A stretch of DNA of 64,000 bases from the human T2T-CHM13v2.0 reference genome, Homo sapiens, in NCBI RefSeq assembly GCF_009914755.1, contig NC_060944.1; one strand, written 5' to 3'. Below are positions 14,281 through 35,621 of the stretch, piece after piece. The position numbers were made by a program, and so were the translations under genes. The stretch's first letter is position 1, and the number at the start of each line of letters is the position of its first letter. Below the pieces are notes generated by a model that saw nothing but the letters and a program-made list of their open reading frames with translations, did no database searches and had not been told where the DNA came from.

Positions 14281-14297
14281 TTTTTTTTTTTTTTTTT

Positions 14298-14382
14298 GGA
14301 ATGATAAACATTTTAATTTGAAAAGCAGGCATCTCTGCTGTTAAGCTTTCTTTTGATGGGTGGGGAGTGGGGGGCGTTGGAG
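14298..14382 (-). other. 3' transduced non-L1, non-satellite segment (~85 bp) of L1-A
   Basis: Lies between the L1 A-rich tail and a 17-nt poly(A), inside the TSDs. ATTAAA on the minus strand at 14312-14317, 14 nt before the poly(A). Confidence 0.85.
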
Positions 14383-14606
14383 TTTATTTATTTTTGTTAT
14401 TATTATACTTCAAGTTTTAGTGTACATGTTCACAATGTGCAGGTTAGTTACGTATGTATACATGTGCCATGCTGGTGTGCTGCACCCACTAACTCGTCCT
14501 CTAGCATTAGGTATATCTCCCAATGCCATCCTTCTCCCCTCCCCCCACCCCACAACAGTCCCCAGAGTGTGATGTTCCACTTCCTGTGTCCATGTGATCT
14601 CATTGT

Positions 14607-17600
14607 TCAATTCCCACCTATGAGTGAGAATATGCGGTGTTTGGTTTTTTTTCTTGCGATAGTTTACTGAGAATGATGATTTCCAATTTCATCCATGTCC
14701 CTACAAACGACATGAACTCATCATTTTTATGGTTGCATAGTATTCCATGGTGTATGTGTGCCACATTTTCTTAATCCAGTCTATCATTGTTGGACATTTG
14801 TGTTGGTTCCAAGTCTTTGCTATTGTGAATAGTGCCACAATAAACATACATGTGCATGTTTCTTTATAGCAGCATGATTTATAGTCCTTTGGGTATATAC
14901 CCAGTAATTGGATGGCTGGGTCAAATGGTATTTCTAGTCCTAGATCCCTGAGGAATCCCCACACGGAGTTCCACAATGGTTGAACTAGTTTACAGTCCCA
15001 CCAACAGTGTAAGTGTTCCTATTTCTCCACATCCTCTCCAGCACCTGTTGTTTCTTGACTTTTTAATGATTGCCATTGTAACTGGTGTGAGATGGTATCT
15101 CATTGCGGTTTTGATTTGCATTTCTCTGATGGCCAGTGAGGGTGAGCATTTTTTCATGTGTTTTTTGGCAGCATAAATGTCTTCTTTTGAGAAGTGTCAG
15201 TTCATGTCCTTTGCCCACTTTTTGATGGGGTTGTTTGTTTTTTTCTTGTAAATTTGTTTGAGTTCATTGTAGATTCTGGATATTAGCTCTTTGTCAGATG
15301 AGTAGGTTGTGAAAATTTTCTCCCATTTTGTAGTTTGCCTGTTCATTCTGATGGTAATTTCTTTTGCAGTGCAGAAGCTCTTTAGTTTAGTTAGATCCCA
15401 TTTGTCAATTTTGGCTTTTATTGGCACTGCTTTTGGTGTTTTAGACATGAAGTCCTTGACCATGCCTATGTCCTGAATGGTAATGCCTAGGATTTCTTCT
15501 AGGGTTTTCATGGTTTTACATCTAATGTTTAAGTCTTTAATCCATCTTGAATTGATTTTTGTATAAGGTATAAGGAAGGGATCCAGTTTCAGCTTTCTAC
15601 ATAAGGCTAGCCAGTTTTCCCAGCACCATTTGTTAAATAGGGAATCCTTTCCCTATTGCTTGTTCTTCTCAGGTTTGTCAAAGATCAGATAGTTGTAGAT
15701 ATGTGGCGTTATTTCTGAGGGCTCTGTTCTGTTCCATTGATCTATATCTCTGTTTTGGTACCAGTACCATGCTGTTTTGGTTACTGTAGCCTTGCAGTAT
15801 AGTTTGAAGTCAGGTAGTGTGATGCCTCCAGCTTTGCTCTTTAGGCCTAGGATTGTCTTGGTGATGTGGGCTATTTTTTGATTCCTATGAACTTTAAAGT
15901 AGTTTTTCCTATTCTATGAAGAAAGTGATTGGTAGCTTGATGGGGTTGGCATTGAATCTGTAAATTACCTTGGGCAGTATGGCCATTTCCACGATATTGA
16001 TTCTTCCTACCCATGAGCATGGAATGTTCTTCCATTTGTTTGTATCCTATTTTATTTCCTTGAGCAGTGGTTTGTAGTTCTCCTTGAAGAGGTCTTTCAC
16101 GTCCCTTGTAAGTTGGATTCCTAGGTATTTTATTCTCTTGGAAACAACTGTGAATGGGAGTTAAGTCATGATTTGGCTCTCTGTTTGTCTGTTGTTTGTG
16201 TATAAGAATGCTTGTGGTTTTTGCACATTGATTTTGTATCCTGAGACTTTGCTGAAGTTGCTTATCAGCTTAAGGAGATTTTCGGCTGAGACAATGGGGT
16301 TTTCTAGATATACAATCATGTCATCTGCAAACTGGGACAATTTGACTTCCTCTTTATCTAATTGAATACCCTTTATTTCATTCTCCTGCTTAATCGCCCT
16401 GGCCAGAACTTCCAACACTATGTTGAATAGGAGTGGTGAGAGAGGGCATCCCTCTCTTGTGCCAGTTTTCAAAGGGAATGCTTCCAGTTTTTGCCCATTC
16501 AGTATGATATTGTCTGTGGGTTTGTCATAGATAGCTCTTATTATTTTGAAATGCATCCCATCAATACCTAATTTATTGAGAGTTTTTAGCATGAAGGATT
16601 GTTGAATTTTGTCAAATGCCTTTTCTGCGTCTATTGAGATAATCATGAGTTTTTTTCTTTGGTTCTGTTTATATGCTGGATTACATTTATTGATTTGCAT
16701 ATATTGAACCAGCCTTGCATCCCAGGGATGATCCCAGCCCACTTGATCATGGTGGATAAGCTTTTTGATGTGCTGCTGGATTCGGTTTGCCAGTATTTTA
16801 TTGAGGATTTTTGCATCAATGTTCATCAAGGATATTGGTCTAAAATTCTCTTTTTTGATTGTGTCTGCCCGGCTTTGGAATCAGAATGATGCTGGCCTCA
16901 TAAAATGAGTTAGGGAGGATTCCCTCGTTTTCTATTGATTGGAATAGTTTCAGAAGGAATGGTACCAGCTCCTCCTTGTACCTTTGGTAGAATTCGGCTG
17001 TGAATCCGTCTGGTCCTGGACTCTTTTTGGTTGGTAAGCTATTGATTATTGCCACAATTTCAGATCCTGTTATTGGTCTATTCAGAGATTCAACTTCTTC
17101 CTGGTTTAGTCTTGGGAGAGTGTATGTGTCGAGGAATTTATCCATTTCATCTAGATTTTCCAGTTTATTTGCATAGAGGTGTGTGTAGTATTCTCTGATG
17201 GTAGTTTGTATTTCTGTGGAATCGGTGGTGATATCCCCTTTATCATTTTTTATTGCATCTATTTGATTCTTCTCTCTTTTTTTCTTTTTAGTCTTGCTAG
17301 TGGTGTATCAATTTTGTTGACCCTTCAAAAAACCAGCTCCTGGATCCATTAATTTTTTGAAGGGTTTTTTGTGTCTCCATTTCCTTCAGTTCTGCTCTGA
17401 TTTTAGTTATTTCTTGCCTTCTGCTAGATTTTGAATGTGTTTTATCTTGCTTTTTTAGTTCTTTTAATTGTGATGTTAGGGTGTCAATTTTGGATCTTTC
17501 CTGCTTTCTCTTGTGGGCATTTAGTGCTGTAAATTTCCCTCTACCCACTGCTTTGAATGAGTCCCAGAGATTCTGGTATGTTGTGTCTTTGTTCTCGTTG

Positions 17601-18423
17601 GTTTCAAAGAACATGTTTCTTTCTGCCTTCATTTCGTTATGTACCCAGTAGTCACTCAGGAGCAGGTTGTTCAGTTTCCATGTAGTTGAGTGGTTTGAGT
17701 GAGATTCTTAATCCTGAGTTCTAGTTTGATTGCACTGTGGTCTGAGAGAGAGTTTGTTATAATTTCTGTTCTTTTACATTTGCTGAGGAGAGCTTTACTT
17801 CCAAGTATGTGGTACATTTTGAAATAGGTGTGGTGTGGTGCTGAAAAAAATGTATATTCTGTTGATATGGGGTGGAAAGTTCTGTAGATGTCTATTAAGT
17901 CCGCTTGGTGCAGAGCTGAGTTCAATTCCTGGGTATCCTTGTTGACTTTCTGTCTAGTTGATCTGTCTAATGTTGACAGTGGGGTGTTAAAGTCTCCCAT
18001 TTTTAATGTGTGGGAGTCTAAGTCTCTTTGTAGGTCACTCAGGACTTGCTTTATGAATCTGAGTGCTCCTGTATTGGGTGCATATATATTTAGGATAATT
18101 AGCTCTTCTTGTTGAATTGATCCCTTTACCATTATGTAATGGCCTTCTTTGTCTCTTTTTATCTTTGTTGGTTTAAAGTCTGTTTTATCAGAGACTAGCA
18201 TTGCAACCCCTGCCTTTTTTGTTTTCCATTTTCTTGGTAGATCTTCCTCCATCCTTTCATTTTGAGCCTATGTGTGTCTCTGCACGTGAGATGGGTTTCC
18301 TGAATGCAGCACACTGATGGGTCTTGATTCTTTATCCAATATGCCAGTCTGTCTTTTAATTGCAGCATTTAGTTCATTTACATTTAAAGTTAATATTGTT
18401 GTGTGTGAATCTGATCCTGTCAT
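14607..18423 (-). pseudogene. L1 ORF2 (endonuclease/reverse transcriptase), disrupted
   Basis: Fragmented ORFs: APE endonuclease motifs (NIYAPN, GDFN, SDH), SPGPDGF, and RT motifs [14 protein letters not shown] and FADD; multiple frameshifts and stops. Confidence 0.96.
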
Positions 18424-34300: not shown

Positions 34301-35173
34301 CCATTCAGGACATAGACATGGGCCAGGGCTTCATGTCTAAAACACCAAAAGCAATGGCAACAAAAGCCAAAATTGACAAATGGGATCTAATTAAACTAAA
34401 GAGCTTCTGCGCAGCAAAAGAAATTACCATCAGAGTGAACGGGCAACCTACAAAATGGGAGAAAATTTTTGCAACCTACTCATCTGACAAAGGGCTAATA
34501 TCCAGAATCTACAATGAACTCAAACAAATTTACAAGAAAAATACAAAAAACCCCATCAAAAAGTGGGCAAAGTACATGAACAGACACTTCTCAAAAGAAG
34601 ACATTTATGCAGCCAAAAAACACATGAAAAATTCTCACCCTCACTGGCCATCAGAGAAATGCAAATCAAAACCACAATGAGATACTGTCACACACCAGTA
34701 AGAATGGCAATCAATAAAAAGGAAACAACAGGTGCTGGAGAGGATGTGGAGAAATAGGAACACTTTTACACTGTTGGTGGGACTCTAAACTAGTTCAACC
34801 ATTGTGGCAGTCAGTGTGGCGATTCCTCAGGGATCTAGAACTAGAAATACCATTTGACCTGGCAATCCCATTACCGGGTATTTACACAAAGGACTATAAA
34901 TAATGCTGCTATAAAGACACATGCACACATATGTTTATTGTGGCACTATGCACAATGGCAAAGACTTGGAACCAATCCAAATGTCCAACAATGATAGACT
35001 GGATTAAGAAAATATGGCACATATACACCAAGGAATACTATGCAGCCATAAAAAATGATGAGTTCATGTCCTTTGTAGGGACGTGGATGAAACAGGAAAT
35101 CATCATTCCCAGTAAACTATCGCAAGAACAAATAACCAAACACCGCATATTCTCACTCATTCGTGGAAATTGA
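31359..35173 (+). pseudogene. L1 ORF2, disrupted
   Basis: MTGSNSHITILT start; endonuclease, RT (QGCPLS, FADD) and C-terminal fragments separated by frameshifts and stops. Confidence 0.96.
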
Positions 35174-35409
35174 ACAATGAAAACACATAGACACAGGAAG
35201 GAGAACATCACACTCTGGGGACTGTTTTGGGGGGGGAGGGGGGAGGGATGGCATCGGGAGATATACCTAATGCTAGATGAAGAGATAGTGGGTGCAGTGC
35301 ACAAGCAAGGCACATGTATACATTTGTAATTAACTGGCAAATTGTTCACATGTATCCTAAAAATTAAGAATAATAATTAAAAAAACAAAAACTAGAAAAA
35401 AAAAGAAAA

Positions 35410-35610
35410 TAATATAGACGAAGACAGAACAAAGACATAAAGGGAAATGGAGTCTTGACAAGATTTGAATCCATGTCTGAATTCAACATTACTGCGAAAA
35501 CTTTGCTGCTACTTTACAATCAATTCTTTTCTGATGTAAATGAGTTCAAGTTGGATTTTTTGTCTCTTTCAACAAATAGGCCTAATATATAAATAAAGAA
35601 CATTTTAATT
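35410..35610 (+). other. 3' transduced unique-looking segment (~200 bp) of L1-B
   Basis: Non-L1, non-alphoid sequence between the L1 tail and a second A-tract (35611-35621); AATAAA at 35592-35597; inside the TSDs. Confidence 0.87.
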
Positions 35611-35621
35611 AAAAAAAAGAA

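What the first reader, a model, noticed from the sequence alone, without database searches (positions are those of the whole stretch)
14281..35621. Two independently inserted, inverted L1s share inactivating mutations: arm-to-arm gene conversion in an L1 palindrome inside alpha satellite
Seen: L1-A and L1-B have different target sites, TSDs and 3' transductions, so they are separate insertions. They nevertheless share non-consensus changes along their length: a 1-nt ORF2 deletion giving [12 protein letters not shown] in both (~17695 / ~32089); an A7-to-A6 frameshift (~18217 / ~31566); a 3-nt ORF1 deletion, RYSSRR to RYSR (~18880 / ~30903); a 1-nt 5'UTR deletion (CCCACGGATCTC); and KSSRRQ, AIKQxNEIK and KEITIR. 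Established: L1 mobilises with strong cis preference, so frameshifted sources rarely transpose. Inference: the mutations arose after insertion and were copied between the 6-kb arms across a 9-kb spacer, resembling palindrome-arm conversion but built from two retrotransposition events.
Basis: partly seen in the sequence, partly recalled or inferred. Interest (0 to 1): 0.85.

Follow-up and report, generated by a model that had tools for sequence, protein, structure and literature searches.

The report
Gene conversion between neighbouring dead L1s
Two old, broken L1 retrotransposons that landed separately and head-to-head in chromosome 20 centromeric satellite have since copied stretches of sequence into one another, a known kind of repair-driven exchange between nearby repeats rather than a true palindrome.

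Summary
L1-A (minus strand, 14281-20404) and L1-B (plus strand, 29378-35630) are full-length L1s with different target-site duplications. Their 3' transductions trace to chr4 and chr13, so they are separate insertions.

Overall the arms are only 92.8% identical, so this is not a homogenised palindrome. One 903-bp tract (B 29640-30542, 5'UTR into ORF1) differs at 1.5% against 8.2% elsewhere. It holds 34 shared derived sites against 13 private ones, and no other genomic L1 exceeds 94% identity to it. That is non-allelic gene conversion, apparently in at least two episodes.

A second cluster of shared derived sites (30772-31087) contains the ORF1 3-nt deletion.

The ORF2 1-nt deletion is rare: 4 copies against 1135 intact. 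Three of the four lie within 42 kb, in A, B and a third neighbouring L1.

The A7-to-A6 frameshift (105 copies) and KEITIR (4 of 15 relatives) are common variants and prove nothing.

Verdict: real, well supported, and a new instance of a known process.

The parts
14281..20404 (-). L1-A, a full-length L1PA-type element. It comprises the body, a 3' transduction at about 14298-14388, and a 17-A tail at 14281-14297.
   Evidence: Aligned to L1-B over 6038 bp at 92.9%. Sequence read. ORF1, EN and RT domains found. The transduced stretch matches only chr4:171905239-171905330 at 92%.
29378..35630 (+). L1-B, a full-length L1PA-type element. It comprises the body to about 35400, a 3' transduction at 35405-35611 with its own AATAAA, and an A-rich tail.
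   Evidence: Sequence read. Domains found. The transduced stretch matches only chr13:80800545-80800735 at 94%.
14268..14284 (-). 3' copy of L1-A's target-site duplication. The 5' copy is at 20409-20425.
   Evidence: Local alignment gives 14 of 17 matches.
29365..29377 (+). 5' copy of L1-B's target-site duplication. The 3' copy is at 35622-35634.
   Evidence: Local alignment gives 12 of 13 matches. Cross-comparisons of A flanks with B flanks score lower.
29640..30542 (+). Main conversion tract in L1-B, running from the 5'UTR into the first ~86 codons of ORF1. Sub-tract 1a is 29640-30114 and sub-tract 1b is 30115-30542.
   Evidence: 14 differing columns of 904, against 420 of 5129 outside. A 377-bp perfect run lies at 30115-30491. 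There are 34 shared derived, 4 A-private and 9 B-private sites; Fisher p = 2e-16 against flanking segments. The next best genomic match is 94%.
19239..20142 (-). The same conversion tract in L1-A.
   Evidence: 98% match to the B tract and the second-best hit genome-wide after B itself.
30772..31087 (+). Second cluster of pair-specific derived sites in L1-B (ORF1 RRM region). It includes the 3-nt in-frame deletion at about 30901-30904. The A counterpart is at about 18695-19009.
   Evidence: 11 shared columns (9 events) against 16 private; Fisher p = 3e-6 against other non-tract segments. A 128-bp perfect run lies at 30960-31087, and no other genomic copy exceeds 98% there.
32076..32106 (+). ORF2 A4-to-A3 one-base deletion in L1-B, producing [12 protein letters not shown] followed by a stop. 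The A counterpart is at 17678-17708.
   Evidence: The deleted form occurs in 4 copies genome-wide (A, B, chr20:29751168, chr11:129377712). The intact form occurs in 1135 copies. Translation.
31554..31584 (+). ORF2 A7-to-A6 frameshift in L1-B. The A counterpart is at 18200-18230. It is a common recurrent slip and not diagnostic.
   Evidence: 105 copies on most chromosomes carry it, as do 2 of 28 and 1 of 28 relatives. A-B mismatches lie 1, 11 and 22 nt away.
33389..33421 (+). Two pair-specific substitutions 10 nt apart in L1-B (AIKQxNEIK). The A counterpart is at 16362-16394.
   Evidence: The 33-mer occurs only in A and B genome-wide. The variants are in 0 of 28 and 1 of 28 relatives.

Best explanation
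Two L1PA-type elements were inserted independently, head-to-head and about 9 kb apart, into uniformly oriented pericentromeric alpha satellite of chr20. Their source loci were on chr4 and chr13, and both source sites are now empty in this genome. Both elements then decayed, at roughly 3.5-4% derived change each.

After insertion, homologous repair repeatedly used one copy as template for the other (non-allelic, interlocus gene conversion without net crossover). This copied the donor's accumulated private mutations into the recipient.

Shown:
- One 903-bp tract, from the 5'UTR into ORF1, has been homogenised.
- The tract has two parts of different residual divergence: 11 private sites in 475 bp against 2 in 428 bp.

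Inferred:
- An older tract around 30772-31087 carried the ORF1 3-nt deletion across.
- Old or short transfers account for the rare ORF2 one-base deletion and for a thin scatter of pair-unique substitutions.
- A third L1 26 kb away (chr20:29.751 Mb) took part in the exchange.
- The A7-to-A6 frameshift and KEITIR need no such explanation.

The mechanism is the ordinary one for nearby paralogous repeats. The inverted orientation makes intrachromatid pairing possible, but that was not tested here.
For: Independent insertion: the TSDs differ; the transductions map to single, different loci with no adjacent L1; the satellite orientation is unchanged across the spacer.

Main tract:
- 1.5% divergence against 8.2% elsewhere, with a 377-bp perfect run. 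The permutation maximum was 191 in 2000 shuffles.
- Polarising with 28 genomic relatives gives 34 shared, 4 A-private and 9 B-private sites in the tract. The adjacent segments give 4/27/20 and 0/13/11 (Fisher p = 2e-16).
- The best third-party match to the tract is 94%, so no other copy donated it.

Second cluster: 11 shared against 16 private columns, p = 3e-6.

Rare ORF2 deletion: 4 copies against 1135 intact, three of the four within 42 kb.

Pair-unique derived sites in ORF2: A-B 5, A-D 4 and B-D 2. The mean over 300 pairs of 25 copies is 0.40 (sd 1.03). The three neighbour pairs support mutually incompatible groupings, which is reticulation.

Precedent: conversion between L1PA3 LINEs, and inversion plus conversion between oppositely oriented L1PA7 LINEs, are described in PMC5829575 (passages read). 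Raised conversion between TE copies closer than 10 kb is described in PMC6598467 (passages read).
Against: - Outside the tract and the second cluster, A-B sharing is thin, about 0.3-0.4% of sites. It does not sit in significantly long identical runs: the 94-bp run around the ORF2 deletion has P of about 0.16.
- For those sites, a shared minor source lineage cannot be excluded by sequence alone.
- One unrelated chr11 copy has the same ORF2 deletion, and two further copies with other flank differences have it too. Recurrence therefore does happen.
- In the 3' third, A is not among the 40 best genomic matches to B, so there is no arm-wide homogenisation.
- No orthologous ape sequence, other human haplotype or read-level support could be examined. 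Donor, direction, dates and assembly correctness are all untested.
- The relatives used for polarising were chosen by similarity to B and are of mixed age.
Confidence: 0.85

Rival explanations
1. A and B (and D) descend from one small, already defective L1 source lineage that was mobilised in trans. On this view the shared changes were inherited at insertion and nothing was exchanged afterwards.
For: A low, fairly even scatter of pair-unique substitutions runs along ORF2 and the 3'UTR. Elements of similar age come from related sources. The two source loci are empty, so their sequence cannot be checked.
Against: - It cannot explain why private changes drop to 13 in 903 bp inside the tract while the flanks carry 47 in 262 bp and 26 in 229 bp.
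- It cannot explain why shared sites are clustered.
- It would require the only known members of a lineage to land within 42 kb of each other. The AIKQxNEIK 33-mer occurs in A and B only, and the ORF2 deletion in 4 copies against 1135.
- A-B, A-D and B-D each have their own unique shared sites, which no single tree fits.
Confidence: 0.07
2. The shared indels are independent parallel slippage events in homopolymers and short tandem repeats, and carry no information on common history.
For: - A7-to-A6 is found in 105 dispersed copies and in 3 of 56 relatives.
- The 3-nt deletion lies in a CTC-CTC repeat and recurs in two unrelated copies on chr2 and chr7.
- KEITIR is in 4 of 15 relatives.
- The A4-to-A3 deletion recurs on chr11.
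Against: - The A4-to-A3 form is about 0.1-0.35% of comparable copies, yet it is present in three neighbours.
- The 3-nt deletion sits among eight other pair-specific substitutions that the chr2 and chr7 copies lack.
- Parallelism cannot produce the tract.
Confidence: 0.05
3. The high-identity tract is an assembly or polishing artefact, in which reads from one arm corrected the other.
For: Nothing in the sequence points to it. It is listed because read-level support could not be examined here and the region is satellite-embedded.
Against: - The tract still holds 13-14 differences, and its two parts differ in divergence.
- The flanks on both sides are 8-20% diverged, so long reads should anchor uniquely.
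- Older sharing patterns that involve a third element cannot come from polishing.
Confidence: 0.03

Closest known systems
Non-allelic (interlocus) gene conversion between nearby transposable-element copies, such as neighbouring Alu elements and L1PA3 or L1PA7 pairs in human DNA
   Same: Both show a bounded tract of raised identity between two paralogous repeats a few kb apart. Both show transfer of private mutations while flanks and TSDs stay untouched. PMC5829575 reports conversion between L1PA3 LINEs and conversion accompanying an inversion between oppositely oriented L1PA7 LINEs (passages). PMC6598467 summarises raised conversion between Alu copies closer than 10 kb (passages).
   Different: Here the partners are old, full-length L1s embedded in pericentromeric alpha satellite. 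At least two, and probably three or more, episodes of different age are visible. A third L1 26 kb away appears to take part. My searches found no description of this locus; they cover open-access text only.
Arm-to-arm gene conversion in large palindromes (sex-chromosome ampliconic palindromes)
   Same: Both have inverted arms separated by a spacer, with sequence exchanged between arms without crossover.
   Different: Palindrome arms arise by duplication and are kept at very high identity along their whole length (figure recalled, not from a call). These arms arose by two retrotranspositions and are 92.8% identical overall. Only about 15-20% of their length is visibly converted.
Inverted L1 pairs as substrates of NAHR inversions (for example HsInv0341, L1PA3 inverted repeats of 6.2 kb about 20.8 kb apart)
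   Same: Both involve full-length L1s in opposite orientation, 10-20 kb apart, acting as recombination partners (PMC3961182, table passage read).
   Different: No net inversion is seen here. The satellite in the spacer keeps the outside orientation, and each L1 keeps its own pair of TSDs. Whether the spacer is inverted in other haplotypes is unknown.

Membership tests
LINE-1 (L1) retrotransposon insertion | ORF1p RRM and C-terminal domains, and ORF2p endonuclease and reverse transcriptase, in that order on one strand | tested here: met
   Pfam finds Transposase_22, Tnp_22_dsRBD, Exo_endo_phos(_2) and RVT_1 in fragments of both A and B. All frames are broken.
LINE-1 (L1) retrotransposon insertion | 3' poly(A) tail and flanking target-site duplication | tested here: met
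   A has a 17-A tail and a TSD matching at 14 of 17. B has an A-rich tail and a TSD matching at 12 of 13.
LINE-1 (L1) retrotransposon insertion | 3' transduction traceable to a unique source flank | tested here: met
   A traces to chr4:171905239-171905330 at 92% and B to chr13:80800545-80800735 at 94%. Each is the only other genomic match, and no L1 is now adjacent to either.
Non-allelic gene conversion between paralogous repeats | A bounded tract of significantly higher identity than the rest of the pair | tested here: met
   14 of 904 differing columns against 420 of 5129. The 377-bp perfect run exceeds the maximum of 191 in 2000 permutations.
Non-allelic gene conversion between paralogous repeats | Within the tract, derived states are shared by the pair and absent from other family members, while private states are depleted | tested here: met
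   34 shared against 13 private sites in the tract, and 18 shared against 153 private in flanking segments. The best third copy is 94% identical.
Non-allelic gene conversion between paralogous repeats | Flanks and insertion signatures of both copies are unchanged, so this is not a duplication | tested here: met
   TSDs and transductions are distinct, and satellite orientation is uniform.
Non-allelic gene conversion between paralogous repeats | Orthologous or allelic copies show the unconverted state | not testable with these tools
   No ape or other human assemblies are available here.
Homogenised palindrome (arm-to-arm conversion keeping arms near-identical) | Arms near-identical along their full length | tested here: not met
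   Identity is 92.8% overall. Windows outside the tract are 88-96% identical. A is absent from the top 40 matches to B 34300-34700.
Dispersed defective L1 sub-lineage (trans-mobilised) | The shared indels and substitutions recur together in copies elsewhere in the genome | tested here: not met
   The ORF2 deletion occurs in 4 copies against 1135. The 3-nt deletion 20-mer occurs in 4 copies, and the two outsiders lack the neighbouring variants. The AIKQxNEIK 33-mer occurs in A and B only. Only A7-to-A6 (105 copies) and KEITIR are widespread, and they occur singly.

The most novel reading that the evidence does not exclude
The L1s embedded in this stretch of chr20 pericentromeric satellite form a small, still active gene-conversion network. 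At least three elements are involved, in both inverted and direct orientation and up to about 40 kb apart.

The youngest tract (428 bp with 2 private differences) would then be recent enough to be human-specific, or even polymorphic among human haplotypes.

If so, old L1 'islands' in satellite arrays could serve as built-in recorders of non-crossover recombination, in centromere-proximal DNA where crossovers are suppressed and satellite monomers are too repetitive to score.
Probability: 0.3. Interest if true: 0.6.

Novelty: new member of a known kind. Interest (0 to 1): 0.4.

Why it matters
This is a clean, datable example of sequence exchange between two independently inserted repeats. Their separate origin is unusually well documented, with different TSDs and transductions from two chromosomes.

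It shows that shared 'inactivating' mutations in neighbouring L1s need not mean a shared defective source. That matters for anyone building L1 source-lineage trees from T2T assemblies.

It also hints that non-crossover recombination operates in pericentromeric satellite. It does not reveal a new mechanism.

Tried and rejected
- Tracing the source elements. Both transductions map to unique loci, but neither has an L1 beside it in this genome. The sources could therefore not be checked for the shared changes.
- An unusual mutation spectrum in A and B. The A-B transversion share looked high. Polarised spectra of A, B and D fall within the range of 22 other copies, so this idea was dropped.
- A special B-C relationship. 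L1-C lies 0.5 kb from B and one piece is 95-96% identical to it. Only 2 shared derived sites were found; C is simply less decayed.
- Large tracts between D and A or D and B. None was found. Only a 147-bp B-D perfect run occurs around the ORF2 deletion.
- Fetching about 40 full-length relatives for a whole-length tree. In some searches, five of the 30 set-1 rows (L008, L018, L019, L025, L026) were dropped because truncations or insertions gave them hundreds of gap columns.
- Subfamily assignment (L1PA number) was not possible without a repeat library.

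
Full report
**What is there.** The window is alpha satellite in one orientation from position 1 to about 62150. Four things interrupt it:
- L1-A (about 14286-20408, minus strand).
- An Alu (24150-24458).
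- L1-B (about 29364-35624, plus strand).
- A truncated L1-C (35952-37668).

A and B align over 6038 bp at 92.9% with 28 gap openings. A global alignment gives 434 differing columns of 6033, or 92.8% identity. Both carry ORF1 (Transposase_22, dsRBD-like), endonuclease and RT domains in many broken frames. They lie head-to-head with about 9 kb between their 5' ends.

**They are separate insertions.**
- L1-A ends in about 91 nt of non-L1 sequence and 17 A's.
- L1-B ends in about 207 nt of non-L1 sequence with its own AATAAA and an A-rich tail.
- A's extra sequence matches one other place in the genome, chr4:171905239-171905330, at 92%.
- B's matches only chr13:80800545-80800735, at 94%. Neither place has an L1 next to it now.
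- The target-site duplications differ: 14 of 17 matches for A and 12 of 13 for B, at different points of the satellite monomer and on opposite strands.

An inverted duplication of a single insertion is excluded.

**The identity profile is not uniform.** In 300-bp windows, A-B identity is 88-96% along most of the element. It is 97-100% between B 29660 and 30560.
- The interval 29640-30542 has 14 differing columns of 904 (1.5%). The rest has 420 of 5129 (8.2%).
- It contains a 377-bp perfect run. In 2000 random placements of the differences, the longest run was 191.
- This interval is the CpG-rich 5'UTR and the start of ORF1, which would be expected to diverge faster. The neighbouring 262 bp at the very 5' end are about 80-83% identical.

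**Polarising the differences.** I took the 28 best genomic matches to the tract and scored each column against the state held by at least 20 of them.

| Segment (B coordinates) | Shared derived | A-private | B-private |
|---|---|---|---|
| 29378-29639 | 4 | 27 | 20 |
| 29640-30114 | 18 | 4 | 7 |
| 30115-30542 | 16 | 0 | 2 |
| 30543-30771 | 0 | 13 | 11 |
| 30772-31087 | 11 | 5 | 11 |
| 31088-32030 | 3 | 28 | 33 |

- In the tract the shared load (3.8%) equals the total derived load of a single element elsewhere, and private change almost vanishes. Fisher p = 2e-16 against the other segments. This is what copying one decayed arm into the other produces.
- No third copy in the genome is closer than 94% to the tract, so the donor was one of the two arms.
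- The two halves of the tract differ in residual private change, 11 in 475 bp against 2 in 428 bp (p = 0.024). That suggests two events of different age, or one event overlaid by a later one.
- The cluster at 30772-31087 (11 shared columns, 9 events; p = 3e-6) has near-background private change. I read it as an older transfer.

- The 5'UTR one-base deletion (at about 29751) is inside the tract and is absent from 28 of 28 relatives.
- The ORF1 3-nt deletion is inside the second cluster and absent from 56 of 56 relatives. A 20-mer across it occurs four times in the genome: A, B, chr2 and chr7. The chr2 and chr7 copies carry none of the seven pair-specific substitutions at 30772-31039 around it; one of them has 31051 C. 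The deletion itself can therefore recur, but A and B share a whole block.
- The ORF2 A4-to-A3 deletion ([12 protein letters not shown] followed by a stop) is rare. With identical flanks, the deleted form occurs 4 times and the intact form 1135 times. Three of the four are A, B and a third L1 at chr20:29.751 Mb, called D here.
- KSSRRQ (32355 G to T) is in 0 of 28 relatives.
- The AIKQxNEIK pair of substitutions occurs only in A and B genome-wide.
- The A7-to-A6 frameshift is in 105 copies on most chromosomes and in 3 of 56 relatives. In A and B it has mismatches 1, 11 and 22 nt away. It is a common slip and carries little information.
- KEITIR is in 4 of 15 relatives. It is an ordinary variant.

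**A third partner.** D is a full-length L1 on the minus strand, nested in yet another L1. It lies about 9 kb before the window start and about 26 kb from A. D shows no large tract with A or B.

In ORF2 (31101-33660) I counted derived states held by exactly two of 25 copies. Five gappy rows were dropped for this count.
- Over 300 pairs the mean is 0.40 (sd 1.03).
- A-B has 5, A-D has 4 and B-D has 2. The only higher pairs look like duplicated loci: an acrocentric short-arm pair and a chr16 pair.
- D's sites shared with A lie at 30943-32169 and those shared with B at 32207-32917.
- Three neighbours each sharing different unique sites pairwise cannot fit one tree. That is reticulation, as exchange would give.

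**The 3' part.** With 15 relatives, 34001-35389 gives 6 shared, 44 A-private and 74 B-private columns. A is not among the 40 best genomic matches to B 34300-34700. There is no homogenisation there, only the same thin scatter of shared sites.

**Interpretation.** Gene conversion between the two arms is shown for the 903-bp tract and is likely for the 30772-31087 cluster.

For the thin background of pair-unique sites, including the rare ORF2 deletion, two readings remain: old or short conversions, or a shared minor source lineage. I favour conversion for three reasons.
- The same two elements demonstrably exchanged sequence.
- The sharing is reticulate among three neighbours.
- A lineage known only from copies that landed within 42 kb of each other would be a large coincidence.

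This last step is inference. The empty source loci prevent a direct check.

Rough timing rests on ratios only. Pairwise private divergence is about 2.3% in sub-tract 1a and about 0.5% in 1b, against about 7-11% in adjacent unconverted segments. The transductions differ from their source loci by 7 of 92 and 12 of 207 bases. Absolute dates would need ape orthologues.

**Comparison with what is known.** All four papers cited here were seen only as passages found by term search, not read whole.
- Conversion between neighbouring TE copies is established. PMC6598467 summarises evidence for Alu, including raised rates below 10 kb.
- PMC5829575 shows conversion between L1PA3 LINEs, and conversion accompanying an inversion between oppositely oriented L1PA7 LINEs.
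- PMC3961182 lists a polymorphic inversion mediated by 6.2-kb inverted L1PA3 copies.
- A 2026 preprint on pangenome L1s (PMC13192797) names gene conversion among processes that blur old L1 lineages (one passage).
- My six full-text searches found no description of this locus. They cover open-access text only, and supplements were not opened.
- The strong cis preference of L1 is recalled knowledge, not checked in any call.

**Verdict.** The 'palindrome' analogy is too strong. This is a well-documented new instance of a known process, of moderate interest.

Noticed in passing
window 24150-24458 (+): A well-preserved Alu with a 21-A tail and a perfect ~15-bp target-site duplication (AAGATGTTTCTGAGA) sits in the satellite spacer between the two L1s. 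It carries a GCAGTCC tandem duplication near its 3' end, which I recall as typical of the young AluYb lineage. That attribution is recalled, not tested.
   Followed up: partly
window 35946-36823 (-) and 36822-37674 (+): L1-C is a 5'-truncated L1 whose 5' piece is inverted relative to its 3' piece. This is the layout usually ascribed to twin priming. It lies 0.3-0.5 kb beyond L1-B's end. It shares only 2 derived sites with B.
   Followed up: partly
G000:C20:29747200-29754400 (outside the window; loci L085, L003, L086): L1-D is a full-length L1 inserted into another L1 (E) of the same orientation, at about L1 position 3890-3906, with a ~16-bp overlap of the host sequence. D shares the rare ORF2 one-base deletion with A and B.
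   Followed up: partly
window about 62151-63995: The alpha satellite switches from plus to minus orientation near 62150 (13 minus-strand against 288 plus-strand monomer matches).
   Followed up: no
L032 (G000:C4:171905239-171905330) and L034 (G000:C13:80800545-80800735): The unique sequences transduced by L1-A and L1-B exist at single loci with no L1 beside them. The two source elements were therefore lost or never fixed.
   Followed up: partly
L013/L015 (chr21 and chr14 short arms) and L024/L030 (chr16:53.6 and 54.8 Mb): These L1 pairs share 10 pair-unique derived sites each in ORF2, more than A-B. They are presumably segmental duplicates, or another case of exchange.
   Followed up: no
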